Assembly (NCBI GenBank): GCA_001275005.1
Contig: JWZX01003091.1
Span: forward strand, 1-40,986
Reading direction: 5' to 3'
DNA from: Chrysochromulina tobinii
Lineage: Eukaryota
DNA length: 40,986 nt
Position numbers and translations under genes: made by a program. This document shows, piece after piece, positions 208-37,472 of the stretch (position 1 is the stretch's first letter; each line of letters opens with the position of its first letter). Under the pieces are notes generated by a model. It ran no database searches and was not told the origin of the DNA. It saw only the letters and a program-made list of their open reading frames with translations.

Positions 208-2075
208 CTGTGGGTGGCGGGAGAGGGCGAAGGCGAGGGACGTCGAGCCGCATTTCTCGCCGCCGAGGAGGAAGACGGATGGTAGCGTCGTGTCGGGCGG
301 CGTCGTGTCGGGTGGCGCCGTGTCGGGCGGCGTTGTGTCGGGCGGCGTCGTGTCGGGCGGCGTCGTGTCGGGCGGTGGCCTGTTCCCGATGGCTGTCGCC
401 GTCGCCGTCGCTGCCGCTGCTGCCCTCGTCACCGCCGTCGAGGGCACCCCCACCCAAGGGTCCTCACGCGCCGTGATGGGCATCCCTTCATCCGCCCAAG
501 GGTCCCGACGCGCCGTGATGGGCACCCCTTCATCCGCCCAAGGCTCCCGGCGCGCCGTGATGGGCACCCCTTCATCCGCCCACAGCCAAGGGTCCTCACG
601 CGCCGACCGCACCGGCTGTCGCAGCAGCCGAAGCTCGCGCCTCACGCTCGCGGCAAAGGGCGCGTAAAAGGGACGAAGGATCGCGTCGGCATCGGTTGGT
701 ACGTCTCTACCTGATGAGGCACGCAATCAGTGGCCGTCAGAGGCGCGCATGCAGGCGGCGTCGGTTGGTACGTCTCTACCTGCATGCACGGCAAGCCGGG
801 CGTGTGTCGCGAGGAGAGCCGATGCCTCGGCGAAAGCGCCGTGTTGGGCGCCATTCTGGGCGCCGTGTTGGGCGAGGCCCGTCCACTCGAGGAGCCCTCG
901 CAGCGCCGTGCTGGGCGCCTCGACGAGCTGGTTCAGCGTCATGATGAGCACCTGGCCCGCGCCGTCAAGGGAGGTCATCAGTGGCAATCAATGGCCATCT
1001 ATGGCAATCAAGCGACTCGCACCTGGCCCACGCCGTCAAGGGAGGTCATCAGTGGTAATCAATGGCCCTCAGTGGCAATCAAGCGACTCGCACCTGGCCC
1101 GCGCCATCAAGGGAGGTCATCAGTGGTAATCAATGGTCATCAGTGGCAATCAAGCGACTCGCACCTGGCCCGCGCCATCAAGGGAGGTCATCAGTGGTAA
1201 TCAAAGGCAATCAGTGGCAATCAAGCGACTCGCACCTGGCCCGCGCCATACGCCTGCCGCCATGTGCGCAGTTGCGGTCCATACATGGCGCCGCCGAGCA
1301 CGCAGCCCGACCAGCCGCATGCAACTGCAAGGCAGCGCTGCCAGGTTTCGGAACTGATGTACGTCGTGCTCATGCCGCTGCTGCCGCTGCTGCTGCTGCT
1401 GCTGCTGCTGCTGCGTCCGCTGTGTACGCCACCGCCTCTCGCGCCGCTTCTGCTCCTGCCGCCGCCGCCGCCTCCGCTGCCGCCTTGGCGCTCACCATGG
1501 CGCTCGACGAGGCGACCGCTCAGGCAGCGCCGGAGCGCCGACGCCTCGCGCGTCACCTTTTGAGTAAAGTTGCGAGGCGAGAGGTAAGGGACGAGAAAGG
1601 CACCCTCGTCGTCGTCGCGCTCATGCGGCATCGCCAGCAGCGCGCGCCAGCGCACCCACGCCTGCTCGACGGGATCACGCAGCACAGCCACGATCCGGTG
1701 GCTGCTTGGCCTCGCCAGCACGGAGTTAAGCCGTGCGGCGGCATACGGTGCGGAGAGGTAGCCCGGGCTGCCGTCGACGATGGCGCGAACGCTCGCGTTG
1801 AGCACGTAGTGGGCCATGTACCAGGCCCAGCCGCGCGTGTATCGATCCTCTGCAGAGACGAACTCGGTGCCGAGGAGCGGCCTCGCGCCGCTTGCTGCAC
1901 TGTGAGGAGGCTTGGGCAGCACGACGCCGAGCTGCCGGCCCAAGGCCAAGGTGAGAGCTTCGCTGCCACACCCGTCTGCTCCAATGATCAAAATGACGCT
2001 CACCGGACGCGGCGGCCAAATGGTGCCAAGGGAGCTCGGGCTTGCCGCGAGCTCGACACCGGCATCGGCCAGCAT
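208..2075 (-). CDS. Tandem sulfotransferase-domain protein (Sulfotransfer_1 / heparan sulfate 3-O-sulfotransferase-like), 3' end outside window. Exons 2075-1236, 951-780, 710-208.
   Basis: Domain 1 has IIGADGCGSEAL (degenerate 5'-PSB loop), DGSPGY and RIVAVLRDPVEQAW (3'-PB motif). Domain 2 starts with VFLLGGEKCGSTSLAFALSRHPQ (canonical 5'-PSB). GT-AG introns at 1235-952 and 779-711 join the ORFs in frame. A donor at 207 opens an intron whose polypyrimidine tract reaches the window edge. ATG 2075 is the assumed start. Confidence 0.75.
278..600 (-). repeat. Coding tandem repeats in the inter-domain linker: 15-bp (PPDTT)x~6 and 39-bp (REDPWADEGVPITA-like)x3-4
   Basis: Visible repeats ggcgtcgtgtcgggc and cgcgccgtgatgggcaccccttcatccgcccaagg on the + strand. 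Confidence 0.85.
952..1235 (-). repeat. Intron made of four 71-nt units, each a complete GT...AG mini-intron
   Basis: Unit boundaries 1022/1023, 1093/1094 and 1164/1165 each read GGGCCAG|GTGCGAGTCGC on the minus strand. Confidence 0.85.
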
Positions 2076-2276
2076 CGGGGTCAGCTCCGACAAACGCTCG
2101 TGTGAATGTGAATGGATGGTAAGATCAAAGCAGAAGGGTCCACGAGAGTGTGGGAATGTCAGTCCGCAGAACACGTAAACACGTTTCCCACATATGAGCC
2201 TCTGATTACCTTCTGATGACCCTCTGATGAGCCTGTGATGAGCCTCTGATCTTGGCACGTGCTTCTACGGACATAG

Positions 2277-2697
2277 GTGCGCACCGGGCGCGTGTACCTG
2301 CGAGATTCGTCAATGGTGATGCCCTACCCGCTCCTCTTATTTGGAGGCGAGCTCAAGGTTGATCGTCAATGCCATTGCCCGGCATGCCCGCTCATGCCCC
2401 GCTCCATGTCCCCGCATGCAAGCGCTCACGACGAAGCCCAAACAATCCCCCCGTCAGGTGCGCCACGCGGAGCAGACGATCACCATCGATGGTTGGATGG
2501 AGTTTGAGGCGCCGCCGCGCGTGGCCGTCCTGTTTCCGTGTTTCGTCAGCTGCGGGTCGAGCTCGATAAGCTGCTGCTGGCCAAGATTGCGGCGCCCACA
2601 GCCGAGGCCGACCTGACCGGTAGGACCGTTGGGGCGATCGTGCAGCTGCTCCAGCCTCCAGGAGGAGGAGGGCTTCTACGTCGCGCAGGGCCACTAA
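2277..2697 (+). pseudogene. Orphan 3' fragment of a DEAH-box RNA helicase (DHX36/DHX57/DHX29-type C-terminal OB region), frameshifted
   Basis: Reads VRTGRVYLRDSSMVMPYPLLLFGGELK | intron 2358-2457 | VRHAEQTITIDGWMEFEAPPRVAVLF, then continues in another frame as RQLRVELDKLLLAKIAAP. Small duplications at ~2531-2544 and ~2649-2661 break the frame. There is no room upstream for the helicase core. Confidence 0.7.
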
Positions 2698-9000: not shown

Positions 9001-11857
9001 ACGTGGGCGACCCCGTGTTCACAATCACCTTCTACGCTGTTGGCGGCGTAGTGGTTCTTCTCGCTACTGCGCTGGTCATGGCCATTTGCAAGCGCAGAGG
9101 GGCTCAGGTAGCAAAGACCGCGCTCGCTCTCGCACGCAAAGATGAGGAAGGGAAGGACGACAGGCATGACAGAATAAAGAGGCGAGCCACCTCAAGGATT
9201 AAGTTGACAGAGGAAGCGACTCAAAGTCTCGCAGCGTCCGCTGGGGTTTCGGAAGCAACGTGGTCCAGGTTGGCTCAGTTGGCGTCACTTGTGGGGTCGT
9301 TCGGGGTCAAGATCCGGATTTTGATCTCGCTCTGCCAGGTGGTCGGGCAGCTGGGGTTGATCTTTGACGTGACCTACCCGGCCTTCTACACTGAAACCCT
9401 CAAGAGCATCAGCAACATCAACATCCCTTTTCAGTTGCTGCCCTTTGGCTGTATCTTTCCGTCGCTGAATAACTTCATCTTCGATCTAGTGCTCAAGACA
9501 GCCACGCCTATCATATTCGTGCTGCTGCTCTCCTTCTTCAGCAAAGTCCTGCGCGCACGCTCTGGCGGTAGCGGCTTTGGGGTCTTCCTCGCTGATGCAT
9601 GCTCGGATCTGTGGTTCTTCATCATCTTCCTCGTCTTCCCAAGCTGCTCCACCATGACCTTCACATACTTCATGCGCGAGACGTATGACGAGCCTGGGGA
9701 GGAGTATGTGGACCTGATGCGAGCCGACCGCTCCATCAACCGCGAGGAGCCTCTCTACCAGAGCTTCACGGCGTACGCGATCGCCATGCTCGTCGTCTAC
9801 CCGATCGGCGTGCCCCTCCTCTATGCGCTCATGTTCCACCGTTCGCGCCACCAGCTTCACGAGATGCGCCGCATCGAGCTCACTCTGGAGACGGACTTTG
9901 CGCTCGCGAAGCTCGAGGCGGAGGCCGCTGCCACCCCGGAGGAGACGGACGAGATGGTGCGCAGGGCCATCGAAGTGCATCAGGCCAGCAGCGAAGCCCT
10001 TGAGAAGCTACGTGGCGAGCTGCCGACGACGCTGCGCAAGCTGACCGCGGGCTACGAGCTCCGCACGTACTGGTTCGAGATCTTTGAATGCCTACGCAAG
10101 ATCACTCTCATCGGGCTGCCCATCTTTTTCCCGCCTGGGTCGCCGCCGCAGCTCATCTTCGGGTTAATCATCTGCTTCCTCAGCTATGGCGCCTACTGCG
10201 TCTGCTCTCCATACATCAGAGATGACGACGACTTCCTTGCTCAGGTTTCGCAGGTCATCATCTTCTTCTCGTTGGTCAGCTCCGTGGTGACCAACGCGTT
10301 CCCCGAGGATCCGTTGATGAGAGTCTTGCTCCCAGCGCTCCTCGCCGTGCCCGTGATCCTCACCTTCATCTTCGAGACGCCGCTGCTCGAGTTCCTGCGT
10401 AGCTTCACCGAACCTGATAAGGAGGGCAACGTCGGCTTGGCTGGCCAGTTTATCCTCGCCTTCCGCCGTCACACCCTCCGGATCACGGATAGGCTCGTTG
10501 GCGCTGTCGGGCAAGAAGAAGCCAAGTCAGGAATGCGCGCCGTGTGGGAGGAGCACAGCAAAGAGCTTGGAGCCTCCGCCTTGGTGCGCGCCCGCTCGTC
10601 CCAATCCTCGTTCACATCCTTGTCGACGTCCGAACCCTCGGCGAGGCATGCAGACATGCCTGCAGCCGGCCCTTCAGAACGTTTTGCTCCCAACGACGGA
10701 GGCGCAGCGATCTCCCAACAATCTCCCAACGACGGAGGCGCGGCGCCGAAGGTGCGGGCACAGGTCCGGCAGGTACGTGGAAACCTGCGCACACTCGTAC
10801 ACGTGGCCGACCAAGCCAACCAGGAGGTCACCGCCGCCTTTGCCGCTGCGATGACCGTGGCCAGCGAGGGCAAGAAGACGCCGGTTCCTGATGACCACTC
10901 CATATTAGGCAACAAGACGTCGACTCCCTGGACTTTTCTCTCGAATCGAACGGCCGTAGCGGCAGCGGCGGCTAAAGTGGCGGACAAGGCGCCAGTGGAC
11001 AAGGCCGCCAAGGCAGCCAAGGCAGACAAGGCCGTGATGAGCCATCTGCTCCAACTCGACCCCACAGGTGTGAATGACCTCTGATGACCTCGATGACCTC
11101 TGATGACCTCTGATGACCTCTGATGAGCCATCTGCTCCAACTCAACCCCACAGCTCTCGAAACCGAGCTCCGCAGCCTGGGCGAGACAAAGCAGGTCTCC
11201 GAGGCTCCTGCAAGCAATGAGGGAGGCAATCAGGTCTCCGAGGCTCCTAGCTCCTGGCGGGCCAGCGTAGCCCCTGGCGGGCCTCCCTGGGAGCTCCTTG
11301 ACTCTGGAGACTCACTCAAGGGCCTCGCTGAGCTCCGTGCGGTCCTCAGACTCTTTACGCGCGAACTCGAGGCTGTCAAGCATGCTGATCACGACTATGT
11401 GCGCATGCAGAGGATGCTCATTATCTTCCTGCGCTTGGTGCAAACAAGAAGTGCGTCGGAGCGCCTGGAGCTCGCCCCCTCGCTGCAGGCTTTGCACAAG
11501 GTCCAGCAGATCCAAGCCATCGTGCACAAGGCACTACTGCGGATGCAACACCGCATGGTGCCCGCCGCCTTCGAACAGTGGCGTGACACCTACCTTGCGG
11601 CCAAACACAAGCACGCTCTCGCTGGAATGGCTCCGCGAGACTCGGACGCTCGGGATGGCGTTGGTGGCGGCGCCAACGGCTCGTCCGAATCAATCTCGAC
11701 GCCCGAGCTGCACTCGACGATTCAATCTGAATCAATCTCGACGCCCGAGCTGCACTCGACGGCGCCTCCCTCGGTGATGACTTGGCTGGCAAACTTGGGC
11801 TCCGACAGGGGCCGCCGAGGGTCCAAGGAGCCCTCTGAGGCACATCTCGATGCGTGA
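3096..11857 (+). CDS. Giant receptor-like membrane protein (~2,900 aa): signal peptide(s), Pro-rich linker, 11 FG-GAP/VCBS repeats, GCC2/GCC3 (ephrin-receptor-like) Cys-rich repeats, SEA-like insert, multi-pass (~7 TM) region and cytoplasmic tail. Exons 3096-11067, 11154-11857.
   Basis: ORF 3045-11084 has AAADVDGDGDLDVLLGN repeats, many CxxCPxGxY motifs and hydrophobic helices at ~9020-10370. Intron 11068-11153 (CAG|GT...CAG|) joins it in frame to ORF 11123-11857 (DPT-A-LETELR). The first in-frame ATG is 3096. Confidence 0.85.
4430..6015 (+). repeat. 11 near-identical 147-bp (49-aa) FG-GAP/VCBS coding repeats
   Basis: gcggcggacgtggacggcgacggcgacctcgacgtgctgcttgggaac recurs at ~147-bp spacing; one unit carries a 9-bp (ELP) duplication. 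Confidence 0.95.
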
Positions 11858-13747: not shown

Positions 13748-15715
13748 ATGGCGGCGACGCCCGCAGCGCAGGCGGTCCGCGATTTGATCGCCCACGCCCG
13801 CGCGGCCGGCGCGGAGCTTCACGAAGCTGTGGTCGTCAAGGAAGGCCAACGCGGCCGCGGTCTCTTTGCGGCTGCGCCGATCGCAAATGGTGCACTGCTC
13901 CTTTCTGTGCCGCTGTCGCACGCAGTCGTCCCGGCCGGCCCACTGGCGGATCTGGTGCCGACTCGCTGTTCGCGGCTACTCGCACTGGCGCTGACTGTCT
14001 TGCATGAAATCCACGTCAAGAGCCCACGGGACCCATTCTTTGAGATGCTCGCGGTGTCTCCGTTGCCTGCGACGCCTTCGCTGTGGACGCACGATGCGAT
14101 CGCCGAGCTCGAAGGCACGTCGCTGCTTCCGAATGGAGCCGACGCCGCCGCCGTGGATGCCGCCGCCGCCGCCGCCTTCGAGGCCGACGTGCTGCCCGTC
14201 ATGAGGGCGGCCGGCGACGACTACCTGCCGCCGCACACGCGCGTGCGTTCACTCTTTGCACAGTGCCTCGCGTGGGTCACGTCGCGAGCGCTCTTCGGTC
14301 GCGTCAACTACGAGCAGGGCGCCGCGAGCCTGTGGCCCTACTTGCGTGCCGACGGCCCTCCGACGGCCAACTCCCTCATCCTGCTCCCGCTCTTCGACCT
14401 GCTCAACACGGCGTCGGCGGGAGATGCGATCTGCGCGAGCCTGCGTCGTGTGGACAGTCCAACGGCTGTCGTCGAAGTGAGGGCCTCGCTCGAGGGCCTC
14501 TGATGGCCTCCCATTGCCTGCAATCGACTCCTCATTCCTCTCTTGACTTCTGACCTCTCATTGACTTGTCATTCACACCTCTCATTGACTTGTCATTCAC
14601 AGGTCAGGGCCACACGCGCGATTGCTGCGACTGACGAAATCCTCATCACGTACGGCCAACACGACGCCGCCGAGCTGCTGCGCACCTATGGCATCTCCGA
14701 GGGCGAGCATGCCCAGCCGGCCGTGACTCTCGACTTCCGCATCGATGAGGTCGTCGATGCCACGCGCACGAGCCTCGCCAAGGCGGGCGCCGTGCTGAGC
14801 GCCGCCAACGCTACGGCGCGCTGTGAGATGCTGCGAGGTGCGGGGCGGCTTCCCGCGTGCTTTCGCGTGCGGTCGGTCAACGGTACGCTGGTGCCCACCG
14901 AGAGCCGACGAGCATGCCAGTGCTCACCACGGCGCCGCGCCTCCCTGGACAGGTACGCTGGTGCCCACTGAGCCGACGAGCGAGCTGGCGAACGAACCGG
15001 CGACGACTATACCTCTCTCGCTGCTGACTTTGGTCCAAGTGCTCGTGATGGGGGACGAGGAGGTGCGTGTATGGGGTAGCCTCTCTGAGAGCCTCTCTGA
15101 GTGCCTCTCTGATTGCCTCTCTGAGTGCGTCTCTGAGTAGTCTCTGATAGCCTCTCTGAGTGCCTCTCTGAGTGCCTCTCTGATGGCCTCTCTGAGTGTG
15201 TCTGATGGCAGGTGCGAGAATGGGATGATGAACCCTGATGATCCCTGATGAGCGCTGATGAGCCCTGATGAGCCCTGATGAGCCCTGATGATCCCTGATG
15301 ATCCCTGATGGCCACTGATGGATGGCAGGTGCGAGAATGGGAAGCGGCCGGGCGCATCATGCTCGGCTTGCCATATTTGGATGCGGAGAGCCTCGCGCTC
15401 GTGATTGGGGCGCTGCTCACACTCTGTAACGGTCGAGTGCGTCGGCTCCCAAAGATGGCAACCGCGCCGTTACAGACCGAGGGCCATGCTGAAGAGGGCG
15501 CCGTCGTGGGCGCTGGTTCGGGCCGCAGTGCGGGCAGCAGCTACGATGCGGTGGAGATGGCGCGCATGCAGGGAGATGCAGGGAGGTGCAGGGAGGTGCA
15601 GGGAGATACCGGGAGATACATGGAGATGGCGCGCGCGCTCGTGCGCCGGGAGCGAGGGCTGCTCGAGGGCGCGTTCACGAGGGCGGTGCTTCAGTTGGAA
15701 TGCGATGGGTCCAAG

Positions 15716-23700: not shown

Positions 23701-26700
23701 CGGGCAGGTGATGACCGCTGATGACCGCTGATGACCACTGATGACCTCTGATGACCTCTGATGACCACCAGACGCACCGCTCTGTCGCATTGGGCATCGC
23801 GTGGGCACAATCCTCTCTGATTGCCTCTACTAATTGCCTCTCATCCTCTCTGAGTGCCTCTACTTATTGCCTCTCATCCTCCCTGATTGCCTCTCATTGC
23901 AGCGCGCGGGCACCATCATCTCGATGAGCTCGAGACTCGAAGATGCTGAGAGCAGCGGTAGCAATGCGCCCGTTGGTGCCGAAGGGACAGGCAGTAGCGC
24001 CGCCGCACCGCCGCCGCCGCAGGAGGTGGTTACGGATGCGGTGTGCGTCGTACCCGAGCCTCAAGGTGCGTCTGATGCCCTCTGATTGCACCTTTGATTG
24101 CCTCTAATTGCCTCTAATTGCCCCTAATTGCCTCTGACTGCCTCTAATTGCCTCTCCATCAGGTGGACTGCCTGGCCCCGCTCTCGTGCGCCTTGCACTC
24201 AACTACTTGCCTCTGATAGCCTCTAATTGCCTCTCCATCAGGTGGACTGCCTGGCCCCGCTCTCGTGCGCCTTGCACTCAACGGCGTCAACTTCGATGAC
24301 GGCACCCCCGACCCGGCCGCCTACATGGCCCAATATGGAGTGCCGCCGGTGCCACAGTCCTACCGGTATTACCGGCAGCTGCTGCACGACCTTCTACCCG
24401 TCGGCGGCCCGACGAGTGGCGGGACGACCGTGAACGTGCGTGGCGAGGGCTTCTCCAATTGGCGAGTGTGCATGCAAGCGCTCACCACGGCGTCCCTCTC
24501 CCCACAGGTGCGCGGCGAGGGCTTCCTAGGGTTTGATGGGCTGCCCAGCACGGCGCGCTGCAAGTTTGAGATCGTGGGCGTCGTGATGATCGGTCGTGTC
24601 ACGGAGATCCGTTCAGATACAGAGCTCGCGTGCTTCGTGCCCGCCCAGGTGAGCGCCGCTGATTGCCACCGATTGCCTCTGATTGGAACTGATCGCCACT
24701 GATTGCCTCAATCATGACCTCGCTGATAAGCGACAATTGCATGCGCCGCTCTCCGACCAATTGCATGCGCTGCTCTCCTACCATTGCATGCGCCGCTCCC
24801 CGATCAGGCATTCGATGGAAGAACCTCCCTCAAGGTCTCTCTGAACGGCTTGCATTTTGTGGGTGTGTCGGCTGCAGCCGCCGCCTCCGCTGGGGCTAGC
24901 CCCGCCCCCACCGCTTCCACCGCCTCCACCGCCTCCACCGCCTCCGCCGCCTCCTCCGCCGCCTCCGCCCCCTCCGCTGCCTCCGGTCGCCGCCTCACGA
25001 GTTCAGTTGGTGACGGCGGCGGCAGTACCTCAAGCAGCAGCAGCAGCAGCAGCAGCCCATACATTCTCAGCAGCAGCACGGCCCTGGTCGCAGAGGCAGC
25101 GCTCCCCCAACCTGCCAACTACGACGGAGGCACTGTGGGGCTTTCCTATTGGTACTACCGCGAACCCGAACTGTACGCTGATGACGCCTGATGACGTCTG
25201 ATGACGTCTGATGACACCTGATGACCCTCCCTCATTGCATGCTGACCTCCCTCTCTCATTGCATGCTGATGACCCTCCCTCATTGCATGCTGGTTACCCT
25301 CCCCTGATTGCATGCTGATGACCCTACCTCATTGCATGCAGGTACACCGTCACCCCCCTCTCGGGCCCCACCGTCGGCTCCGGAGCTACCGGTATGAGTC
25401 ACGCGGTCTTCACAGTCACACTCTCGGGCCGTGGCTTCGATCGACTCGCCGCCGCCGGTGCGCATGACGTGGCCCAGCTGCCGCCCCGCCCGCATGCATG
25501 CGCTCACGACGGCGCCGACGCTTCCCCACACCCCACAGGTGCGCGTGACGTGGCCAAGTGCCGCTTCGGCGGCGTGGCGTCTCCAGCGGTGGCGGTGGGC
25601 CCCACGTATGCGGTGTGCCTCTTGCCGCCCGGTCGGCAGGGGAGCGCTCTTGTGGAATTCTCCGTCAATGGGCAGGTGGGTGACGAAACCTCATTGAGTG
25701 ACGAAACCTCATGGAGTGACGAAACCTTACCGAGTGATGAAACCTGATCGAGTGACGAAACCTCATGGAGTGACGAAACCTCATGCGCCCGCAGACCCAT
25801 GATGATCCCTGATGGCCTCTGATGACCGCTGATGACCCCTGCCATCAGGACTTCTACTCTCAGCGAGAGCTTCTCTTCTTCGACGGTTCGAACTTGACGA
25901 ACGCGACGGAGGCTTACCTGCCGCCCGTCATCACTTGCCTCCTGAGCGCCTCCGACCTCACCGAACAGCTCAAGCAGGTCATCTCAGCGGCGCTCGGGCT
26001 GACCTTTTCTGCCGGAGACCAACTGACGGATGCCCTGCTCGAAGCGATGCGCGCCGCCCTGGGCGCGCCGGCGACCATGGCCGATGACGAGGTGCGCAGG
26101 CTTGTGGCCCTCCCGCACGCGTGCATGCAAGCGCTCGCGACGGCGCGCGCGCGCCCAGCGTCGACGAGGTGCGCAGGCTTGTGGGCCTCGCGCATGCATG
26201 CGTGCATGCATGAGCTCGCGACGGCGCCCAGCGCATGCATGCGCTCATGACTGCGCTCCCGCGCATGCATGCGCTCACCACGGCGCCTCACCCTTCCCCA
26301 CAGGTGCGCGAGCTCTTGATCTCGCGCGGCGTGCTCGAGTGCAGCTCGAGGACGACGCGCGTGCTCACGACCAGGACGACGCGCGATGAGCTCTTCTTGG
26401 AGGTGCGCGCGGCCCTGATGAGCCCTGATGAGCCCTGATGAGCCCTGATGAGCCCTGATGAGGTGATCGCCGCTAAGTACCGCTGAGTACCCCCCTCATT
26501 GAGTACCCCCCTCATCACACGTCGCAGGCGCTGGTGCCCTTCCCGACGCACGTGCCCAACATGACGCTCGAGCCCATGCCCACGTGGGACCTTCCCGAGG
26601 GCGACGGTTTCGTCCTCCTCGCTTCCACAGCGATCGGGCCCTACCGGCCGAGGCTGCGCGCCGTGTTGAGCGCCAATCGGACCACGTCGCTGCGGGCGGT

Positions 26701-26895
26701 CTTCAACGGCAGCTACTTCTACTTCCGCTACTATGAGCAGGTGCTCGCCTCTAATGACTTCTGATGACCTCGAATGACCTCTGATGACCTCTAATTACCT
26801 CTACTTCCGCTACTATGCGCAGGTGCTGCATACGCTCTGGCCGCGCGCCGGTCAGGCACTGCGCGGCGATGAGCCGTGCTGCACCCCAAGCACAC

Positions 26896-26926
<31 letters not shown>

Positions 26927-29900
26927 TGCTGCTGCCGAGGCCCGCGCCGTCCCGGGCACCGCCTCGGAGGCGGCGAACGCGAGCGTGGCGGTGACCGGCT
27001 TCGGCTTCGACGTCTTCGGCGCGTCGACGCTCGCGACGGCGCGTTGCAAGTTCGGCACCGTCATCACCCAAGTGATCTCGATCGAGCTGAGCGGCATCGC
27101 GCTGCCCCGAGCGCCGCCCGCGCCGCCCCGAGCGCCCGAGCCCCCTCCCTCCTCGGCTGATGTAGGCGCCTCATCAGCGGGTTCGTCAACGGCGGCACCT
27201 ACCGGTATGAGCAATGCATGCATGCATCGACAAGGCGCGCTCTCGGCGCGCTCATTCCCCCTACCCTACCCCGAACCCTAATTAGGTACGAGCATGCATG
27301 CATTTGGCACTCTCGACGTCTTCCTACCGGTCACGAGCGGAGAAGGCAGCAACAGTGCTACCGGCAGCAGCAGTGCCGACAGCAGCGGCGGCGGAGGCGG
27401 CGGAGGCGGCGGAGGCGGCGGAGGCGATGGAGGCGTTGCGAGCTGGGGTGGGAGCGGCGCGGGGACGCTTGTACGCTGCATTGCTCCAGATTTCGATCTC
27501 GTCGCTCCAGATGTCGATCTCGTGGGCGTGGGTGGCACGGCGGAGGTTGAGGTGACCTTTGCCGTCTCGGAGTGACCTCTGAGTGCCTTCTGAATGCCCT
27601 TTGAGTGCCCTCTGAGTGACCTTCGACCTCAATAACGAGCACTTCCTCTCCCGTGCATGCATGTGCTCACTACGGCGCCCATCCTTCCGCACAGGTCACC
27701 GTCGCCCTCAACGGCGAGCACTTCCTCTCCGCCCGTCCCCCCGCCATCTACCGGTACTACCAGCAGTCCGTCCTCTCCATCTTCCCCACAGGAGGGCCGG
27801 TAGGGGGCGGCACGCTCGTCACCGTCCGGGGGTACGGGCTCGTCAACGAACCTCTCTGCTGACGTGCATGCATGCCTTTGACGGCCACTAATTGCGTGCC
27901 TCATTAGGTACGGGTTCGTCAACGGCGCCGATGGCGGCGCGGGCCTACGTTGCCGTTTCGACGACCAGCGCGTGCGTGTCCAGCTCCAACCGGTCAATCG
28001 CACAGGAAGCAGCCGCAGCAGCAGCAATAGGAACAGCAGCACGGGCAGCAGCAGCGGCAGCGGCAGCGGCAGCGGTGATAGTAGCGGCAGTGATGGCAGC
28101 GGGTTTCGTCACGAGTACGAGGTGCATTGCTTCGCGCCGCCGCGGCAGACGTTCGCCCCCGGGGTCTCTGACTTCAGCCTCGCCCTCAACGCCCACCACT
28201 ACCTCAGACCACTTAGTGGGAGTGGCTTCACGTACGTTGCCTAGCTCGAGACCTCTCTGAGGACCTCTGATTCTCTGAGGACCTCTGATTGCATCTGATT
28301 GCATCAGCTTGCATCCGATGGCCTCTGATGGCCACTAATTGCGTACGAATTGCGTGCCTCATTAGGTACTACGAGGACCCTCACGTCTTCGGCATCTTGC
28401 CCACCGGAGGCCCCATGCGTGGCGGCACGCTCGTCACGGTGATTATGCTCTGAGTGCACGCTCTGATTGCATCCCTCATCACTGCTTTTCGTCACGGTGA
28501 TTATGCACGGAGTGCACGCTCTGATTGCATCCCTCATCACTGCTTCTCCTCACGGTGATTATGCACGGAGTGCACGCTCTGATTGGCTACTCGGGCACGG
28601 CTTCCACAGGCCCCTTGATTGCCCTTCTCATCATCCCATCAACTCTGAGTGCCCATGGTTGCCTAATATGGCAGGTGCTCGGTCGCGGCTTCCATGGCCT
28701 CGGCGCCGACGTGAGCGTCGCGCGTTGCCTCTTCGGAGAGTTGACCTCCTACGGTCGGGTGATCTCGATCTCGCCAGATGGCACCTCGCTCACATGCCTC
28801 TCGCCCACCCCGTCGCCCTTGGAGTTGGGATGCGTCATGCCGCCGCCGCCCTTCCCGCCGCCACCGCCGCCCTCGGCGCCGCCGCCCTCACTGCCCCCCT
28901 CGGCGCCGCCGTTGCCCCCCTCAATGCCACCCTACCCGCCGCCGATCAATATGACCAATACGACGCTCGGGCTTAATATGACCAACGCGACCAATACCAC
29001 GGTGTGTGCGCTGATCGCCGCTGATTGCCACCGAGAGCCGCTGATGACCACTGATTGCCACTGAGTGTGTGCGCTGATAGCCGCTGATTGCCACCGAGAG
29101 CCGCTGATGACCACTGATTGCCACTGAGTGTCCCTGGACGCTGCTTCTCATGGCCTCATATGACCTCTGATCGCATCGCTCATCAGGCCTTCAACATGAC
29201 GAACGCGACTAATTTCAGCGTCATCGAGATCATCACCGTTTCGGCGCCTCCACCGCCACTCCCTGTAACCGTCGAGGACGCCCATGCGCCCGCCCACTGC
29301 GCCGGCTCTCTCCTCACGCTGCGCATCGCGCTCGATGGTCAGGTGATTACATGATTGCAATTACCTGATTGCAATTACCTGATTGCAATTACCTGATGCA
29401 ATGACCTGACATGCGCTCGATGAACAGGTGACTGCAGCTGATGGCAACTGATTGCATGTGAGTGATGCTGATTGCTCTCCGCACGCTCCATCTTGCGCAA
29501 TCTCGCCCCATCTCGCCCCATCTCGCCCCATCTCGCTCGCCAGATTCGTACCAACTCGTACGGAGATCGCCTCCCGCCGCCGCTGAACGAGAGCACCCTC
29601 GACCTCTCTGACGAAATCGACGGAACCCTCGCCGCCAACGGCGCCAACGCCACCGACACGGCGCTCCTGCTGAACTTGACCAACGGGACGAATACTTCGT
29701 CACCCCCGCCCCCCGGCATGCCCCCCCCTTCCTCGCCTCCACCGCCGCCCTCGATCGACGCTCCGTGCTTCTTCGGCACCTGCCGCGAGTTCCTCTACTA
29801 TCGCGAGCCAGCACTCTCCTCAATCTCGCCCTCGGGAGGTCCCGTCCGGGGGGGGTTTGCCGTCACGGCGCTCGGCCGACGGTTGGATGGGATGCGCCTC

Positions 29901-31639
29901 AATGCCTCCATCGCGAGGTGCGTCCTCTGATGACCCCTGATGGACCCTTGATGGCCCCTTGGTCGCCCCCTTGATGACCTCCTTGATGACCTCTAATTGC
30001 CTGACGGTCACCCCTTGAGTGCAGATGACCCCCTTGATGACCCTTAATTGCCACATGGTGATCCCCTTGATGACCCTTAATTGCCTCATGGCCTCCCCCT
30101 TGAGTGCAGATGCGCCTTCGGTCGCCTTCATGTGCGCGTGAACTCGATCGCCCACGACGGCGCGCTCAACTGCACCACGCCGCCGCAGCCGATGGCGCAC
30201 GCGAGGTTCGCAATCTCGCTCAACGGGCGCGACTTCACACCCGCGCGCGGTGTGAACGCCCACGTCGGCGGCGTGAACGCGCGCGACCGCGAGTTCAACA
30301 GCGCGATCCGCGCCCACGACAGCGCGTCGCTCCGCTACCACGCGTACCGGCAGGCTGTTCACAGCGTCTGGCCGCTGGGCGCCCCCGCCTCCGGTCGAAC
30401 TGTGATCACGTTAAGCGGGGAGGGCTTCAGTTCCTTCGGCTCCGTGGGCGGCGCCGTCGTGGGCGGCGCCGTCGTGGGCGGCGCCGTCGTGGGCGGCGCC
30501 GTTGTGGGCGGCGCCGGCGAAGGGGGGGCGGCCGGCCTTGCCGCGTGCCGCTTCCTACCCGTCGACGCGCCGTCGCGGGCGTGCGAGGAGTATGACGAAG
30601 CTCGGCTTCGGCACAGCACGCTCGCACGGTGCCGCTCGAGGGCGGCGGTGGTCTTTCGGGCAGCTGCGGCGGCCTTGGCGGCGAGCGCGGGGGCTGTGGA
30701 AACGCCTGTGGGGTCGGCTGTGGAATCGGCTGTGGGGTCGAGGTACCGAGGGGGGATGGGCGGCGGCATGGGCGCCGACCTGAGCGGCGGTGGTTACGAC
30801 GAGACGGGCGCCGACCTGAGCGGCGGTAACGAGTCGGGCGCCGTCTCGGGCGCGGCGTCGGACCGGCTGGGCAGCGGTTACACCGATACGATCATCTGTC
30901 TGCTCACTACGGACAGTCTCCCACCTAATTTGGAAAGTCTCCCACAGAATGCGAGCGCCGTGCGCGTGCAGCTCGCCCTTAATGGAGAAGACTATCTCGA
31001 CCCGATCTCGCCGGTGCGCCTCTGATGGCCTCTGATGACCTCTGAGTGCCTCTGATGGCCTCTGAGAGCCTCTGATGGCCTCTGATGGCCTCTAATGGCC
31101 CCTGATGACCTCTGAGTGCCTCGGTGTGCCTCTGATGGCCTCTGATGGGGTCTGATCGCCTCTGAGTGCAGGTGCGGATCGCCATCTACCCAAGCCTCCA
31201 AGTCCATTCAGTCACGCCGCCCGCCGGCACGAGCCGCACGCTCCTCCTAGTGCAAGGCGTCGGCTTCTCCGGCCTGCCGCATGCAACCCCTCGGTGCATC
31301 TTCACCGCGGCGCGTGGGGACAAGTTTCGTCAGACGAGCGCCACGCGGCTGAGCGATACGCAGTTGCGATGCCACTCGCCGCGGGACGTGTACGGGCTCG
31401 TGCCGCCGTCGTGGGCGAATGGCACGAGCGACAGCCATGGCGCCGCCCACGACGGCGCGCACGCCCACGACGGCGCGTCAGCCCACGACGGCGCGTCAGC
31501 CCACGACGGCGTCGCTGGTGGCGGCGGAGACGGCGGTGGCGGCGGGCTGCTCTACGTACGGATTGGGGTTACCATCAACGGTGTTGACGAAACTCGAGCT
31601 ACCGGTGAGATCGCACCGACGCTGCCCTGGCAATTGCGC

Positions 31640-31671
<32 letters not shown>

Positions 31672-34600
31672 CGAGCCGTCGCCGTCGCCTGATGACGACG
31701 GTAATTCGACCGAGACGACGACGACCACTCCCCCCCGCGTGCCGCCACCCGCTGTGCCGCCGTCGCCACCGGAGCCACCGGAGACAGACGCGCAGCAGCT
31801 GCTTCGCCTCGCCGCCGCCCGTCTCGCCGCCGAGTCGTTGACGAAACTCAATGCGAGCAGCGCCGATGCATTCGCCATCTTCCCGCTGCCAGCGCTCTCG
31901 ACCGTTTCGCCGACCGGCGCCTTCCTGAACGGGGGCGTCCCCTTGACCATATTAGGCAGGGGCTTCGATATTCTTCGCGAGGTGCGCGCCGTCGCGGGCA
32001 GCGCCGTATTGGGCGGTCAGTGCCGCTTCGGCGGACCGACGGGCGTGCGCGTGCCCGGCACGGCGCTCGACGACGGCGCGTTTGCATGCGCGTCGCCCGC
32101 TTGGGGCGCGCGTTCTCCTGGGCGCGTGCCGATCGAGATCTCCATCTCCGCTCCGTTTGGCGCCGACTACGCCGACTGGGTAGGGGGGCGACGACACCCA
32201 CTCCTCTTCACACTTGCCCGCCCGTTCACACTCTCCTCTGTCCTACCCGCCGGGGGGCCCGTGCACGGGGGGACGCGCCTCTACCTGCGCGGCGACGGCT
32301 TCGAGGGTTTTGCGCGCACCACGCCGTCGGCCTCCCTGTGCAAGTTCGGACCGTTTGAAGGCCATGCGTTCGAGGGCTACCCGTAAGCTCTACACTGATG
32401 ACCACTGATGGCGTCTGATGGCGTCTGATGACCTCTGATGACCTCTGATGACCTCTGGTGACCTCTGATGACCTCTGATGACCGCTGATGATCTCCTCTC
32501 GATCTGCAGCCATGCGCTCAACGGCACCGTTCAAGCGACTCGCTCGAGCGCCACCCTCGTTCTCTGCGTCGCTCCCCCCGCTGTCGGTCTCTTGCCGTCA
32601 AGCGTCGCCCTCCGACTCTCACTCAACGGCATCGAGTTCGCTCCCGGGGCGCACGCGGGTCCTCGGGAGATGCCCTTCTATCAGTACGCGGATGACCTCG
32701 AAGTGCTGCTGATGACCACTGATGACCGCTGATGACCACTGATGACCTCTGATGACCGCTGATGACCGCTGATGAGAGCTGATGGGTACTGATGAGCGCT
32801 GATGGCCTCCCTCATCAGGTACTATCCACACCCAACGCTCGTGCAACTGCAGCCGTCGCGGGGGTCCGCAGCCGGGGCACAGCTCATCACCATCGTTGTA
32901 CTCGGTCTTGAGGCGTTTGGAAGCCTGAGTGAGGCCCTCTGCCTGATGACGCCTGATGACGCCTGATGACGCTTGATGACGCTTGATGACGCTTGATGAC
33001 GCCGACGTGATGTTCTCGTGAGCCCCCCTGAGTGCCTGTGATTGCCTGGGATTGCCTCCCTCATCAGGTGAGACCCTCTGCATGATTGGGGACGCCATCG
33101 TGGCAGCGCGCCATCGTGGGCGCGCCACCGTCGTCTGCCCGACGCCGCCGCGCCGGGCGGGCGCCGTCGCGGTACGCCTCTCTCTCAACGGCCAGAGCTT
33201 CACACCGCGCGACCAGGTGAGCTTCACACCGCGTGAGCATCTTGATTGCCGTTGATGACGTCGGATAGGGGATTGCCTCTGATTGGCTCTAATTGGATCT
33301 GATTGGCTCTGATTGGCTCTGATTGGCTCTGATTGACTCATGACTGGCGCCGCGCACGCGATCGCAGGCGCTCGAGTACACGTATGCATGCGAGCTGAGC
33401 TATTCCACACGCGACACCTGTGTTCTCGACCCGGCATGCGGCTACTGCGAGCCGTTGAGCGTCTTGCTTCCACCGGGTATTCCCGATTTGGAAGAGGAGG
33501 AAGGCGACTGGGTGGCCAACCGCGCGGCCGATGGCGGCGGCGTCGGCGGCGGCGTCGGCGGCGGCGACGGCGGAGGAGGAGGAGGCAGCGGCGGCGGCGG
33601 CGGCAGCGGCGGCAGCGGCGGCGCAGGCGCAAGTTCACACTTGCTTGGTGAGGGAGGGCCTCAAGGTTGCTTGAGCCGCTCGCTCTCCTCTCATTGCATG
33701 CTGATTGCATGCTGATTGCCTCCCTAATTGCCTCCCTAATTAGGTTGCCTGAGCCGCTCGCTCTCCTCTACCTGCCGCGGCTACTGGCGAGAGCAGTTGC
33801 CGTTGAACATGAGCGCGCTCGGGACGGCGCCCTCCATCTATACGGGGACTGTTCGGCCGGCGGAGACGCTTCATTATCGGCTGACGCTGCCGCTGCCGCC
33901 GGGTACGCGCTCGGGACGGCGCTTCGTTGACGGCGCAGCGGCGTGGCCACCGATTGCGGCCACTGATTGCGGCCACTGATTGCGGCCACCGATTGCGGCC
34001 ACTGATTGCGGCCCTGATTGCGGCCACTGATTGCGCCATGGAGAGTGATCCCGCTGATGAGCGCCGCTGAGAGCTGTGATTGCGCCGCTGATGATGTGAT
34101 GACGTCCCTCATCAGGTACGAGGTCGGTCGTTACGTTCCACAGCCCGAGCGCCGTGTTGGACGTTCGCAGCCCAGCCGGAGGCACGCAATCACCCGTCAT
34201 CAGCGGCGGAGGCACGCAATCACCCGTCATCAGCGGCGGAGGCACGCAATCACCCGTCATCAGCCGTGCGACGCATGGCGAGATCGCAACCTCGGCCGCG
34301 CCCGGCGCCTCCGATGTGATCTCGACCTCGGGAGATGCGATCTGGCGGTACGAGATCGCGCGCGCGGTGCCGGTCGAGGTGCCCGAGACGGCGGCGGCGC
34401 GGCGGATCTCGTCACGATCTCCCTGGGCGCCGAGCGCGGTGAGTGGTCTCGATCAGCCGACGCTCAGGACGGCGCTCGAGACGGCCGGATGGGGGCGGGG
34501 GCGGGGGCGGGGGCGGGGACGGGGGCGGGGGGCGAGGAGGACGACTACAGGCCTAATGACGAGGACGAGGACGCGGACGAGGTCGCGGCCATGCAGGCCG

Positions 34601-36179
34601 CCCTCGTCGCCTCCGCCGCCTCCGCCGACAGCGTCTCACCCTCCTCGGCTGTGAATGCACAGCGGCCGCGGCGTGAATGCCAGGCGCCGCAGGAGTTGGT
34701 ACTCGACTTGCTGGTGCGCCTCGAATGGCCTCGAATGGCCTCTGATTGCATAAGATTGCATAAGATTGCATATGATTGCATATGATTGCATATGATTGCA
34801 TATGATTGCATATGATTGCATATGATTGCATATGATTGCCCTTGATTGCATATGATTGCATATGATTGCCTCCGATAGCCTCTGACGGTACTTGGCCTGC
34901 TGGTGCACGAGCCGCGCCTCTTACGCTCCTACACTCACGAGGTGATCGATGCATGCAAGTGCTCATCACGGCGCTCCGCCCCCTTTCCCCACAGGTGCAT
35001 GGGCCGCGCCTCCTGCGCTACTCTCGCGACGACCAGCGCGACAACACGATCTACACCACCCTCCCGCCGCCTTCACAGCACAATCCGTTCACAGTGGCAG
35101 TCTCGATGGCGCTTGATTACGCGGATGGCTTCGGATGCGGATGCGATGGCGAGCCCGCCTTCTTTGAGCTGCGGGCGCCGCCGTGGGCGCCGCAGAACAA
35201 CACGACCAATACCACGGCCGCCCTCCACCTGACCGAGGGCGCCGTCGTGGGCACTCCAGGCAGCCCCAGGTGCATCGCCCGCCCTTCCAATCAGATGCAT
35301 GCAAGTGCTCATCACGGCGCCTTGCACCCTGTTCCCACAGGTGCATCGCACGCCCATCCAATCAGACAGACGTGAGCACGCCGCCGTCGACCAACTCCAT
35401 ATTAGGCAACGGGACGAATGTGAGCTTGGCGACGGAGATGACTGTGAATGTGAACGTGACTGGGGTGGTGAACACGACGAACATCACGTTTCCACCCGCC
35501 GTGCCGCCCCCATTGCCACCTGGGTGGGCACCCAATGGTACGCGCTGATGACCTCTTGATGACCTCTTGATGACCTCTTGATGACCTCCTTGATGACCTC
35601 TCGATGACCTCTTGATGGCCTCTTGATGGCCTCTTGATGGCCTCTTGATGGCCTCTTGATTGCCACTTGATGGCCTCTTGATTGCCACTTGATGGCCACT
35701 TGATTGCCACTTGATTGCCACTTGATTGCCACTTGATTGCCCCCTCAGGCACGGCGGAGAATCCGCTCGGACTTCCCTATTGCGATGAGCTCGAGGACGA
35801 GATCGGGAGCTCCGGCGGCGAGATTGGGGGAGATATGGAGGAGATTGGGGGAGATATGGAGGAGATTGGGGGAGATATGGAGGACGAGGACGTCGACGGT
35901 CCAGGGAACGTGACTGAGGTGGACACGTCGCCGCCCTCATGCCCAGCGCCCCCGGCGCCACCTGTGGTGGATGTGGTCCGCTTCATCCGAGCATGCGGGC
36001 TCGAGTTGCATTGGGGAGCGACCATACTCCAGAGGCGAGCGCCCTCAGTGCACGCGGGGGCGCCCACGACGGCGCCCAGCGCCGCTGCGACTGGAAGCGG
36101 CAGCGGCGGTGAAGGCAGCAGCGGCAGCAGCGGCAGCAGCGGCAGCAGCGGCGGCGAAGGCAGCAGCAGCAGCAGCAGC

Positions 36180-36213
<34 letters not shown>

Positions 36214-37472
36214 GCAGCAGCAGCGACAGCAGCAGCCTACCTACCCTTCCCCTTCCCTCGAGCTGGCTACGGTTGACGAGCGGCGCTGGCTCGGTCGGGA
36301 CCGCTTGGTACAGCGCGCCCCTCCCCCTTCGCGCAGGCTTCGATTTGCTCATCACGGCGCCCCAACCCCTCTCCCCACAGGTACAGCGCGCCCCTCCCCC
36401 TTCGCGCGGGCTTCGACACGAGCTTTACGTTCCAATGGCTGCAGGTGATGGCCATTGATCACATTGATTGCCATTGATTGCCATCGATTGCAATTGATTG
36501 CCCTCGATTTACATTGATTGTCATTAATTGCCATCGATTGACATCGATTGACATTGATTGGCACTGACACGAGCTTTCCGTCCCCTTGGCTGCAGCCGAG
36601 TGCACGCACCGATCGGCACGCACCCAACTTCGGCGGCGGGCTCGCGTTCGTGGTGCATGCCGACGTTCGAGGGCCGTTTGCGGTGGGCTGTGCGGGCGGC
36701 GGCTTTGGGTTTCGTGCATGCAAGTGCTCATCACGGCGCCTCGCCCCCTTTCCCCACAGGTGGGCTGTGCGGGCGGCGGCTTTGGGTTTCGTGCGAGCCC
36801 GGACGCGGCTGTGGAATGCTCCGAACGCGTGGGCCGCGCTGTCGCGGTCGCTCTCCACGCCGACCATTTGGAAGTCATACGTACGTTGATTGTCTTAACT
36901 TGCCATGGAGTACCTTGGACTGCTACTGATTGCTAATGATCGCTACGTTTGTCATTGATTGTCATTGATTGCCACCATATTTGACAACCATACGTACGCT
37001 GATTGCCGTGGATTGCCTCTGGGCGACACTGCGCGACTCTGAGCTCCTGATCAACACACACTGAATGCTTCCCTCATCAGGCACCGATGAGGACTTTGCA
37101 GTGCCGTTACTCGCGGGCTACTTCCCCTGGCCTCGGCGCGTCGATGACGGCCGGCCGCACCGCGTGCGCCTCACGTACTCACGGCCCGGCGGCGGCAGCC
37201 TCGCCGCCTTCGTCGATGACCTCGAGAAGCCCGTGCTCACGACGGCGCTGGACCTGCAAGGCCACGCGCTTGACGAAACGGGGCGCGGCTTCGCAGGCTT
37301 CACAGCGGCGAGCAGCGCCGTGGCGAGCAGCGCCGTGGCGAGCGGCGCCGTGGCGAGCAGCGCCGCCGGAGCGCCCTCGGAATCGCCCACGACGGCGCGG
37401 GTCGAGGACGAGGTCGCGGTCGAGGTGCTCGACTGGCAGCTAGCCACCTTCTTTATGGAGACGGCGTCCTAA
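20757..37472 (+). CDS. Very large multi-exon protein (about 40 introns) with many IPT/TIG (plexin/fibrocystin-like) repeats, Pro/Ser/Gly-rich linkers and a C-terminal legume (L-type) lectin-like domain
   Basis: Recurring exon translations PxGGPxxGGTxxTxxGxGF...CxFG...C...SLNGxxF...YY. The last exons encode WLRLTSGAGSVGTAWYSAPLPLRAGFDTSFTF...GGGLAFVVH...HRVRLTY...FAGFTAAS. Stop at 37470-37472. It could be more than one gene; the start is uncertain and no clear signal peptide follows ATG 20757. Confidence 0.72.
25680..25785 (+). repeat. Intronic 18-bp tandem repeat x6 with TGACGAAAC core
   Basis: Copies at 25681, 25699, 25717, 25735 (variant), 25753 and 25771. Confidence 0.9.
34743..34870 (+). 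repeat. Intronic (GATTGCATAT)n 10-bp minisatellite
   Basis: About 12 consecutive units visible. Confidence 0.9.
35545..35742 (+). repeat. Intronic 11-bp minisatellite grading from CTTGATGACCT to CTTGATTGCCA
   Basis: Visible array between the donor at ~35538 and the acceptor at ~35748. Confidence 0.9.
36683..36759 (+). mobile_element. Candidate intron-forming cassette B insertion (GCATGCAAGTGCTCATCACGGCGC...CCCCACAG) with a perfect 35-nt target duplication
   Basis: 36683-36717 is identical to 36760-36794. Related cassettes end introns at 2457, 14952, 24507, 25538, 26303, 27694, 34994, 35340 and 36380. Confidence 0.6.

What the first reader, a model, noticed from the sequence alone, without database searches (positions are those of the whole stretch)
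711..36794. Introns built from a long duplication of the neighbouring exon plus a short splice cassette: candidate active intron-generating system
Seen in four separate genes. Many introns begin with a copy of the first ~17-36 nt of the DOWNSTREAM exon, which supplies the GT: 779-711 (minus strand), 14883-14952, 18691-18775, 24436-24507, 25458-25538, 27832-27907, 35270-35340, 36308-36380 (36 nt, 1 mismatch) and 36683-36759 (35 nt, perfect). Others end with a copy of the last ~12-46 nt of the UPSTREAM exon, which supplies the AG: 952-1235, 11068-11153, 18829-18936 and 19215-19301. Splicing therefore restores the original coding sequence exactly. The duplicates range from perfect to decayed, like an age series. 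Established: Introner elements (e.g. Micromonas, Aureococcus) are short non-autonomous DNA transposons that take one splice site from a short target-site duplication. Inference: duplications this long and variable do not fit a fixed-stagger transposase. They point to target-primed reverse transcription, staggered-break repair or template switching that inserts a splice-signal cassette.
Basis: partly seen in the sequence, partly recalled or inferred. Interest (0 to 1): 0.88.

Follow-up and report, generated by a model that had tools for sequence, protein, structure and literature searches.

The report
Introns rebuilt from copied exon ends
In a freshwater alga, 31 of 50 introns carry a 14-48 base copy of their own neighbouring exon, three such introns are missing from the predicted proteins of some close wild relatives, and a repair-type copying step likely makes new introns and rewrites old ones, which would let intron birth be studied while it is still under way.

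Summary
Real, and more widespread than reported. The window is a Chrysochromulina tobinii contig. All 13 named stretches hold the exon copy; one boundary is wrong (19215-19450). Of 50 modelled introns, 31 hold a copy of their own exon edge, against about 1 expected. Two other assemblies match 38 of 39 introns exactly. Three of four testable 'exon copy + borrowed 3' half' introns are absent in some close relatives that keep the flanking introns; 0 of 5 other sites are (read from predicted proteins). The same units are also stacked onto existing junctions. A 95% paralog shares all 15 positions but differs by such units at three. One site also has an intron in distant relatives. So turnover is supported; net gain is likely but unproven, because the repeats also allow exact loss. 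Best reading: template-switch or staggered-break repair, not a transposase. A published survey lists zero introner families for this species. The scan saw the 5'-copy footprint before, on another piece of this genome (e1-2577349).

The parts
711..779 (-). Type A intron: 24-nt copy of downstream exon + 3' filler family (iii); absent in 2 of 7 informative relatives
952..1235 (-). Intron expanded to four tandem 71-nt units (intron + upstream exon end)
11068..11153 (+). Type B intron: 5' intron half + 33-nt copy of upstream exon end that supplies AG
14477..14602 (+). Intron with a weak, sub-threshold 16-nt downstream copy at its start; present in 14 of 14 relatives
14883..14952 (+). Type A intron: 29-nt copy + filler family (i)
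15063..15328 (+). Ordinary intron with an internal AG followed by a 14-nt downstream copy (15212-15225)
18691..18775 (+). Type A intron: 35-nt copy + filler family (ii); absent in 8 of 15 close relatives; intron at the same site in a distant relative
18829..18936 (+). Type B intron, 17-nt copy; an RNA contig reads the spliced form
   Evidence: X13 record 11
19215..19450 (+). True intron (reader gave 19215-19301); 48-nt upstream copy at 19254-19301 followed by a second donor
19556..19863 (+). Intron with internal copies of both flanking exons (about 19666-19719)
21444..21599 (+). Intron holding a near-perfect copy of its own spliced junction (21491-21548)
   Evidence: junction score 111
21803..22030 (+). 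Intron holding a decayed junction copy (21872-21937)
22230..22474 (+). Intron with an internal 35-nt downstream copy (22351-22385)
23708..23902 (+). Intron holding a decayed junction copy (23772-23821)
24066..24241 (+). Intron with a local 79-nt tandem unit (3' intron end + perfect 41-nt downstream copy)
24436..24507 (+). Type A intron: 18-nt copy + filler (i); in frame, no stop
25458..25538 (+). Type A intron: decayed copy of about 33-38 nt + filler (i); present in 13 of 13 relatives; in frame, no stop
25676..25848 (+). Ordinary intron; the paralog L004 carries an extra 79-nt unit (3' end + 31-nt exon copy)
26092..26303 (+). Filler (i) intron with a 77-nt junction-spanning unit that the paralog lacks
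26741..26822 (+). Type B intron, 27-nt copy; shared with the paralog
27205..27285 (+). Type A intron, 18-nt copy; shared with the paralog
27552..27694 (+). Intron with a 36-nt downstream copy (27616-27651) + filler (i); in the paralog this unit follows a complete intron
27832..27907 (+). Type A intron: 17-nt copy + filler (iii)
32929..33067 (+). Type A intron, expanded by repeats
33666..33743 (+). Type A intron, 26-nt copy
34714..34994 (+). Intron holding a junction copy (34887-34940) followed by filler (i)
35270..35340 (+). Type A intron: 26-nt copy + filler (i); spliced in RNA contigs; absent in 1 of 14 relatives
36308..36380 (+). Type A intron: 36-nt copy (1 mismatch) + 5'-shortened filler (i)
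36445..36595 (+). Type B intron, 30-nt copy
36683..36759 (+). Type A intron: perfect 35-nt copy + 42-nt filler (i)
20757..37472 (+). Host gene G5: IPT/TIG-repeat protein of about 3580 aa with 39 introns; the window has two extra G (34487, 34527) that other assemblies lack
18038..20383 (+). Host gene G4: galactosyltransferase-family protein (PF01762), 5 introns
13748..15906 (+). Host gene G3, 3 introns; SET-domain-like by recalled motifs, no Pfam hit in two exons scanned

Best explanation
These introns are built from a 14-48 nt copy of the neighbouring exon edge joined to half of another intron, most likely by template-switch or staggered-break DNA repair, which rewrites existing junctions and likely also creates new introns at exonic G|GT or AG| sites. 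Shown: two mirror-image units occur, A = [exon start copy + 3' intron half] and B = [5' intron half + exon end copy]. They occur alone or stacked on an existing intron, which gives internal copies and copies of the spliced junction. Inferred: the broken end switches to another intron end, nearby or elsewhere, through the short GT(A/G)C or CAG homology shared by splice sites. Selection keeps products that splice exactly and are about 70 nt or longer. Inferred: the direct repeats allow exact deletion again, so type A introns come and go. No dedicated enzyme is needed, and none was sought genome-wide.
For: 31 of 50 introns hold copies; 26 of 37 copies lie exactly at the exon edge. At least three unrelated filler families are shared between different genes (779/27832, 18691/21803/19556, family (i)), and there are mirror-image 5' halves. 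Best terminal inverted match is 3-7 of 10 and the longest A run is 2. Plain local tandem units of 71-87 nt span junctions (952, 23109, 24066), and the paralog differs from the window by such units at 3 of 15 shared introns. Filler (i) similarity falls with distance inside G5 (8 copies, rho -0.54, p about 0.01, post hoc). In relatives P0268 and P0269, filler (i) sits about 22 codons upstream of 14883, where the window has no intron. In P0269 it matches the acceptor end and first exon bases of the neighbouring 14883 junction (inferred from protein). For new positions: absent alleles at 3 of 4 type A sites against 0 of 5 others (Fisher p=0.048). Type A introns are short (11 of 12 are 69-85 nt, against a median of 186 for ordinary introns). 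Their phases differ (phase 0 in 2 of 12 against 21 of 34, p=0.017, post hoc). Distant relatives of G4 leave homology at many different points.
Against: The direction is not fixed: absent alleles could be exact losses between the repeats. The 18691 site also has an intron in P0156/P0191 (74% identical; exon 2 resumes about 130 nt later in a shifted frame, 0 of 500 shuffles) and probably in P0162 (54%), although P0158, P0164 and P0167 read through it. The 95% paralog shows no gain or loss at 15 positions. Across all G5 introns, neighbours do not have more similar 3' ends (p=0.13 and 0.38), and the best filler match is often in another gene. The phase contrast weakens to p=0.054 against introns followed by GT, and to p=0.07-0.29 if four weak cases are added. 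Nine of 12 type A introns carry GCATG, against 4 of 34 others, which looks like a defined element end. The presence/absence data come from predicted proteins, not from DNA that I could read.
Confidence: 0.5

Rival explanations
1. A short non-autonomous element (filler (i) and kin) is mobilised in trans, for example by target-primed reverse transcription, and leaves unusually long, variable target-site duplications: an Introner with a 15-40 nt duplication.
For: Filler (i) is a dispersed family with a fixed 3' end and a mostly common 5' start at a TGCATGCA palindrome. Within the window's five modelled genes every copy follows an exon copy. Summed depth over one copy is 18,174 against about 47 for single-copy contigs (a rough hint, the tool says it is no copy number). 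Marine Chrysochromulina genomes have Introners. An earlier scan note claims more than 100 related introns in lake metagenomes (e1-2577349, not checked here).
Against: There are several unrelated fillers and mirror-image 5' halves. Local tandem copies have the same architecture. No inverted ends, poly(A) or consistent hairpin. Filler (i) also ends introns without a downstream copy (by eye). Published duplications are 3-8 nt and fixed per family.
Confidence: 0.27
2. No net gain. Old introns are partly overwritten by one-sided recombination with spliced cDNA or an intronless allele (abortive intron loss), and the resulting repeats then allow exact loss.
For: Four introns hold a clear copy of the spliced junction itself (21444, 21803, 23708, 34714). 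The 18691 position has an intron in distant relatives. All 15 positions are shared with the paralog while their interiors change. In relatives P0268/P0269 the intron copy, not the exon, keeps the residue seen in most outgroups, which fits loss in the window's lineage.
Against: The phase and length of type A introns differ from the other introns. A junction copy also arises from unit B followed by unit A. Relatives show many lineage-specific intron positions in G4. Three distant relatives read through the 18691 site.
Confidence: 0.2
3. Assembly or annotation artefact.
For: The window has two homopolymer errors. Only a few junctions have RNA support, and it is indirect.
Against: Two other assemblies are identical at 38 of 39 introns. 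The copies carry independent mismatches. The paralog and a contig from another sample (L016, by eye) show the same architecture. 14 of 16 terminal-copy introns break the frame if retained.
Confidence: 0.03

Closest known systems
Introners / introner-like elements (Gozashti et al. 2022, PMC9860276; 2025, PMC12130899; Polarella classes 4-6, 8, 10 in bioRxiv 10.1101/2020.10.14.339549)
   Same: One splice site is carried and the other is taken from a duplicated target. Splicing restores the coding sequence. Dispersed related sequences occur, and so does presence/absence. Marine Chrysochromulina has Introners with a 4-bp duplication and no inverted repeats.
   Different: Duplications here are 14-48 nt and variable, against 3-8 nt fixed. 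Only about half of the intron is shared between loci. There are several fillers and both orientations of the design, and events stack on existing junctions. The 2025 survey lists 0 families for C. tobinii; its filter needs similarity up to both intron ends, which these would fail.
[quoted passage not shown]
   Same: Direct repeats plus filler, segregating presence/absence, repeated staggered events that lengthen young introns, and parallel gains at one site.
   Different: Here the repeats are long and exactly anchored at the exon edge, and the filler is a recognisable intron end from a few families. 31 of 50 introns are affected.
Tandem genomic duplication of an AGGT-containing exon segment (as reviewed in PMC3443670)
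   Same: An exon-derived duplicate supplies a splice site, and the coding sequence is unchanged.
   Different: Only one splice site comes from the duplicate. The upstream exon ends in AG in 3 of 12 type A introns, and the other half is borrowed intron sequence.
Direct repeats at intron borders in general (Rogers and Bendich 2025, PMC11782384, abstract only)
   Same: Direct repeats of 4-30 bp near splice sites are reported across taxa.
   Different: That survey gives a mean of 11.4 bp. Here the median is about 29 nt, with shared fillers and population polymorphism.

Membership tests
Introner (TE-derived intron family) | Family similarity reaching both intron ends | tested here: not met
   Only the 3' 37-60 nt are shared; the 5' part is a host exon copy
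Introner (TE-derived intron family) | Short target-site duplication of fixed length (3-8 nt in published families) | tested here: not met
   14-48 nt, 26 anchored copies; published range
Introner (TE-derived intron family) | Terminal inverted repeats (many families, not all) | tested here: not met
   Best 3-7 of 10 matches over 12 fillers
Introner (TE-derived intron family) | One splice site carried, one co-opted from the duplication | tested here: met
   12 type A and 4 type B introns
Introner (TE-derived intron family) | Presence/absence among close relatives | tested here: met
   3 of 4 type A sites, read from predicted proteins
Introner (TE-derived intron family) | Autonomous partner with the same termini | not testable with these tools
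   No whole genome held
Non-LTR retrotransposition (TPRT) | Variable-length target-site duplication | tested here: met
Non-LTR retrotransposition (TPRT) | 3' poly(A) or simple-repeat tail | tested here: not met
   Longest A run is 2; the ends are YAG
Non-LTR retrotransposition (TPRT) | 5' truncation with microhomology | tested here: inconclusive
   One shortened filler (36308); short overlaps at some junctions, by eye
Tandem genomic duplication (AGGT model) | Both splice sites from a duplicated AGGT, intron wholly exon-derived | tested here: not met
   AG before the donor in 3 of 12; filler is not exon-derived
Break-repair intron gain (Daphnia type) | Direct repeat plus inserted filler at a polymorphic site | tested here: met
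Break-repair intron gain (Daphnia type) | Position absent from outgroups | tested here: inconclusive
   18691: an intron in 2 distant lineages, read-through in 3; no outgroup DNA
cDNA-mediated (abortive) intron loss | Spliced-junction sequence written into the gene at an old intron position | tested here: inconclusive
   Junction copies exist but two successive duplications explain them equally well

The most novel reading that the evidence does not exclude
C. tobinii has a self-propagating intron cycle that needs no transposon. Break repair duplicates 15-45 nt of exon and captures half of another intron, creating new introns that segregate in wild populations, can be deleted again exactly through their own repeats, and are rebuilt repeatedly at the same junctions.
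Probability: 0.4. Interest if true: 0.9.

Novelty: new variant of a known kind. Interest (0 to 1): 0.72.

Why it matters
How new spliceosomal introns arise is an open question, and bursts of gain are currently credited to Introner transposons. This cultured alga, scored as Introner-free in a survey of 8,716 genomes, shows a frequent footprint of another kind, which similarity-based screens would miss because half of each intron is host sequence. Alleles with and without the intron appear to exist in nature, so direction, rate, donor source and fitness cost could be measured directly. The gene models here also have far more introns (39 in one gene) than the published average of one per gene, so the annotation may have hidden the pattern.

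Tried and rejected
No whole genome was held, so there are no genome-wide counts. Filler and repeat patterns gave 0 hits in viral contigs, 0 hits in prokaryote genomes, and one stray contig there (L016). The read-laying at 85% likeness was swamped by repeats: 15 of 1532 joints were shown and none was a claimed intron. The junctions 36308 and 36683 have no RNA confirmation. The protein search with G5 exon 1 against longer proteins found nothing. Five of 10 exact ORF look-ups were not in the collection, including those for 36308, 36683, 27205 and 24436, so those sites have no population data. The idea that copies come from a diverged coding paralog was rejected: mismatches are even over codon positions (22/18/24). 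A general resemblance between neighbouring intron 3' ends was not found; the 5' ends gave one nominal p=0.024 of two statistics. Filler hairpins: z-scores -0.87, -1.20, +1.03 and -2.03, no consistent structure. The decayed exon copy that I suspected inside the P0156 intron is not significant (p=0.06). The three relatives that stop right after the Trp at 18691 (P0180, P0182, P0186) cannot be assigned: one point change in the copy or a different donor would both do it. L013-L015 were not used: they are weak hits; L013 looks bacterial and L014-L015 were not read.
Full report
Source. No whole genome was held. A named cluster member on a contig of the window's exact length is annotated as Chrysochromulina tobinii (P0215). 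The nearest named relative of the window's lipoyl transferase is C. rotalis, 63% identical. The window is therefore haptophyte nuclear DNA.

Observation. All 13 stretches begin GT, end AG and carry the stated copy. I modelled five genes with 50 introns; all read open except for one frameshift in G5. That frameshift comes from two extra G that other assemblies lack. The stretch 19215-19301 is only part of an intron: the frame needs 19215-19450. Aligning each intron to its own 50-nt exon flanks, 31 of 50 exceed the 99th percentile of swapped pairs (23 downstream, 14 upstream), and the reverse-complement control gives 1 and 1. Of 37 significant copies, 26 lie exactly at the exon edge, against 262 of 4900 swapped pairs; 16 of them also form the end of the intron; lengths are 14-48 nt. 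An unbiased scan gives 14 hits on the + strand and 0 in each of 20 block shuffles. L001 and L002 match the window in 38 of 39 G5 introns, so the copies are not assembly errors, although these loci are probably the same strain.

Splicing. Evidence is indirect. In one search, RNA contig X13-16 lies on 34994-35295 with exactly the two mismatches that separate the intron copy from the exon. X14-24 holds 34994-35266 inside a 725-nt contig. X13-11 shows the single mismatch expected if 18829-18936 is removed, and X14-18 leaves the window at the 21444 donor. The public annotation splices 35270-35340 and 35538-35748 as modelled (P0215). Retention would break the frame in 14 of 16 terminal-copy introns; 24436 and 25458 would not. 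The near-perfect cases 36308 and 36683 have no RNA confirmation.

Anatomy. Two mirror units describe nearly everything. Unit A is a copy of the downstream exon start plus a 3' intron half (12 clear introns, 4 weak). Unit B is a 5' intron half plus a copy of the upstream exon end (4 introns). The rest are stacks: unit A behind a complete intron (15063, 22230, 24066, and 27552 in the paralog), unit B before one (952, 19215), or B next to A, which leaves a copy of the spliced junction inside the intron (21444, 21803, 23708, 34714). Fillers fall into at least three unrelated families shared between genes. They lack inverted ends and poly(A) and fold no better than shuffles, with one borderline case of four. 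Nine of 12 type A introns contain GCATG, against 4 of 34 others. Family (i) also ends two introns in L004 that have no downstream copy (by eye). Mismatches between copy and exon are even over codon positions (22/18/24), as expected for neutral decay of local copies.

Paralog. One scan of metagenome contigs returned 15 loci. L004-L007 hold a roughly 95% identical copy of window 25567-32701. All 15 intron positions are shared, including type A 27205 and 27832 (the latter partly deleted) and type B 26741. Three introns differ by junction-spanning units: the paralog has an extra 79 nt at 25676, the window an extra 77 nt at 26092, and at 27552 the paralog keeps a whole first intron ahead of the exon copy plus filler (i). 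Rewriting of existing introns is therefore shown, and no gain or loss is seen over that distance.

Populations. Gene callers read metagenome DNA into the next intron, so protein ends reveal intron state. At most 15 members per cluster were listed, out of 73, 15, 63, 22, 8 and 3. At 18691, 8 of 15 read through the junction and into the next intron, 4 carry the intron with its copy, and 3 stop right after the Trp. One of the 8, P0181, is encoded on a 23,665-nt contig, so it is DNA. Intron 35270 is absent in 1 of 14, with both flanking introns retained (P0223). Intron 779 is absent in 2 of 7 (P0259, P0262). Both absent types carry linked residue changes, which argues against collapsed repeats. 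Intron 25458 is present in 13 of 13. Five other sites (18829, 14477, 25676, 1235, 34714) were never absent; 3 of 4 against 0 of 5 gives p=0.048. Partly spliced RNA cannot be excluded for the short contigs. Two relatives at 88-90% identity show filler (i) about 22 codons upstream of 14883, where the window has no intron. In P0269 it matches the acceptor end and first exon bases of the 14883 junction, which suggests copying from the neighbouring junction at DNA or pre-mRNA level. This is inferred from protein only.

Gain or rewriting. For gain: polymorphism confined to type A; short length (11 of 12 are 69-85 nt); a different phase profile (2/6/4 against 21/5/8, p=0.017 post hoc, weaker in stricter comparisons); and many lineage-specific departure points in relatives of G4. 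Against: the 18691 site carries an intron in P0156/P0191 (74% identical; exon 2 resumes in a shifted frame, 0 of 500 shuffles) and probably in P0162, while P0158, P0164 and P0167 read through. Long direct repeats also allow exact deletion, so absence may be derived. Parallel gain at one site is common in Daphnia, so a shared site does not settle age. I put the chance that some type A introns are true gains at about 0.7.

Mechanism. I favour template-switch or staggered-break repair (0.5). It explains both orientations, several fillers, local tandem versions and stacking without special machinery, and exactness follows from splice-site microhomology plus selection. Filler (i) similarity falls with distance within G5 (rho -0.54, p about 0.01, 8 copies), although intron ends in general show no such trend. 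A trans-mobilised element with long duplications (0.27) and abortive cDNA-mediated loss (0.2) remain open. That some non-LTR elements leave long duplications, and that one-sided recombination and polymerase-theta templated insertion exist, is recalled knowledge and comes from no call.

Literature seen. Gozashti 2022: passages and supplement rows (file cut when stored, family rows for Chrysochromulina not read). Gozashti 2025: passages and supplements, where C. tobinii has 0 families (files 13 and 14 not searched). Dinoflagellate preprint: passages and section 5, duplications of 3-8 nt (supplements closed). Mikina 2024: first fifth. Yenerall and Zhou 2012, Li 2014 and Hovde 2015: passages. Rogers and Bendich 2025: abstract. 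Ten searches found no description of this pattern in haptophytes, judged from titles and abstract starts; the library lacks most subscription journals, and unseen supplements could list such families. The scan's own notes hold one earlier report of a 15-nt 5' copy elsewhere in this genome (e1-2577349), which pointed me to the dinoflagellate paper, and a similar single case in another protist (e1-7378193). Neither counts as independent support.

Verdict. A real, frequent and apparently undescribed mode of intron construction and turnover. It works like Introner insertion and like break-repair gain, but fails the Introner membership tests on duplication length and end-to-end family similarity. 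New variant of a known kind; interest 0.72.

Noticed in passing
L004 1-19145 (also L005-L007; related pieces in L008-L012): A mosaic region holding a 7-kb, about 95% identical piece of gene G5 (25567-32701) fused to fragments of other genes. One fragment looks like acetyl-CoA carboxylase by recalled motifs. It suggests a gene-capturing element or frequent segmental shuffling.
   Followed up: partly
window 34487 and 34527: Two extra G in homopolymer runs break the G5 frame in the window; L001-L003 lack them.
   Followed up: yes
window 20757-37472: One open gene model of about 3580 aa with 39 introns, whereas the public annotation has a 293-aa partial protein starting inside an intron (P0215) and a 220-aa truncation of G4 (P0178). 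The published mean of one intron per gene may be an undercount.
   Followed up: partly
window introns throughout, e.g. 19556-19863, 32383-32509, 35538-35748: Introns are filled with 10-12 nt tandem repeats around a CTGATGAC / CTGATTGC core that resembles a branch-point motif; the unit length varies between introns.
   Followed up: no
window 2203-2697: An intron-containing fragment on the + strand that looks like a DEAH-helicase C terminus (recalled motif). It has a filler (i)-like acceptor at 2457 and an exon copy before it, and may be a pseudogene.
   Followed up: no
window 3045-11067: A single exon of about 8 kb with twelve 147-nt repeats (4277-6055) and many Cys-rich repeats; it has no introns although neighbouring genes are intron-dense.
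   Followed up: no
window 480-600, 11195-11233, 11680-11760, 12400-12540, 34170-34260: Short tandem duplications are also common in exons and between genes, which fits a high genome-wide rate of local duplication.
   Followed up: no
L016 1-1440: A contig filed in a bacterial MAG carries Chrysochromulina-type introns, one with an internal downstream-exon copy (by eye); likely eukaryotic contamination.
   Followed up: partly
window 38130-39260: Armadillo-like 126-nt repeats on the minus strand whose copy number or order differs between the window, L001 and L002.
   Followed up: no
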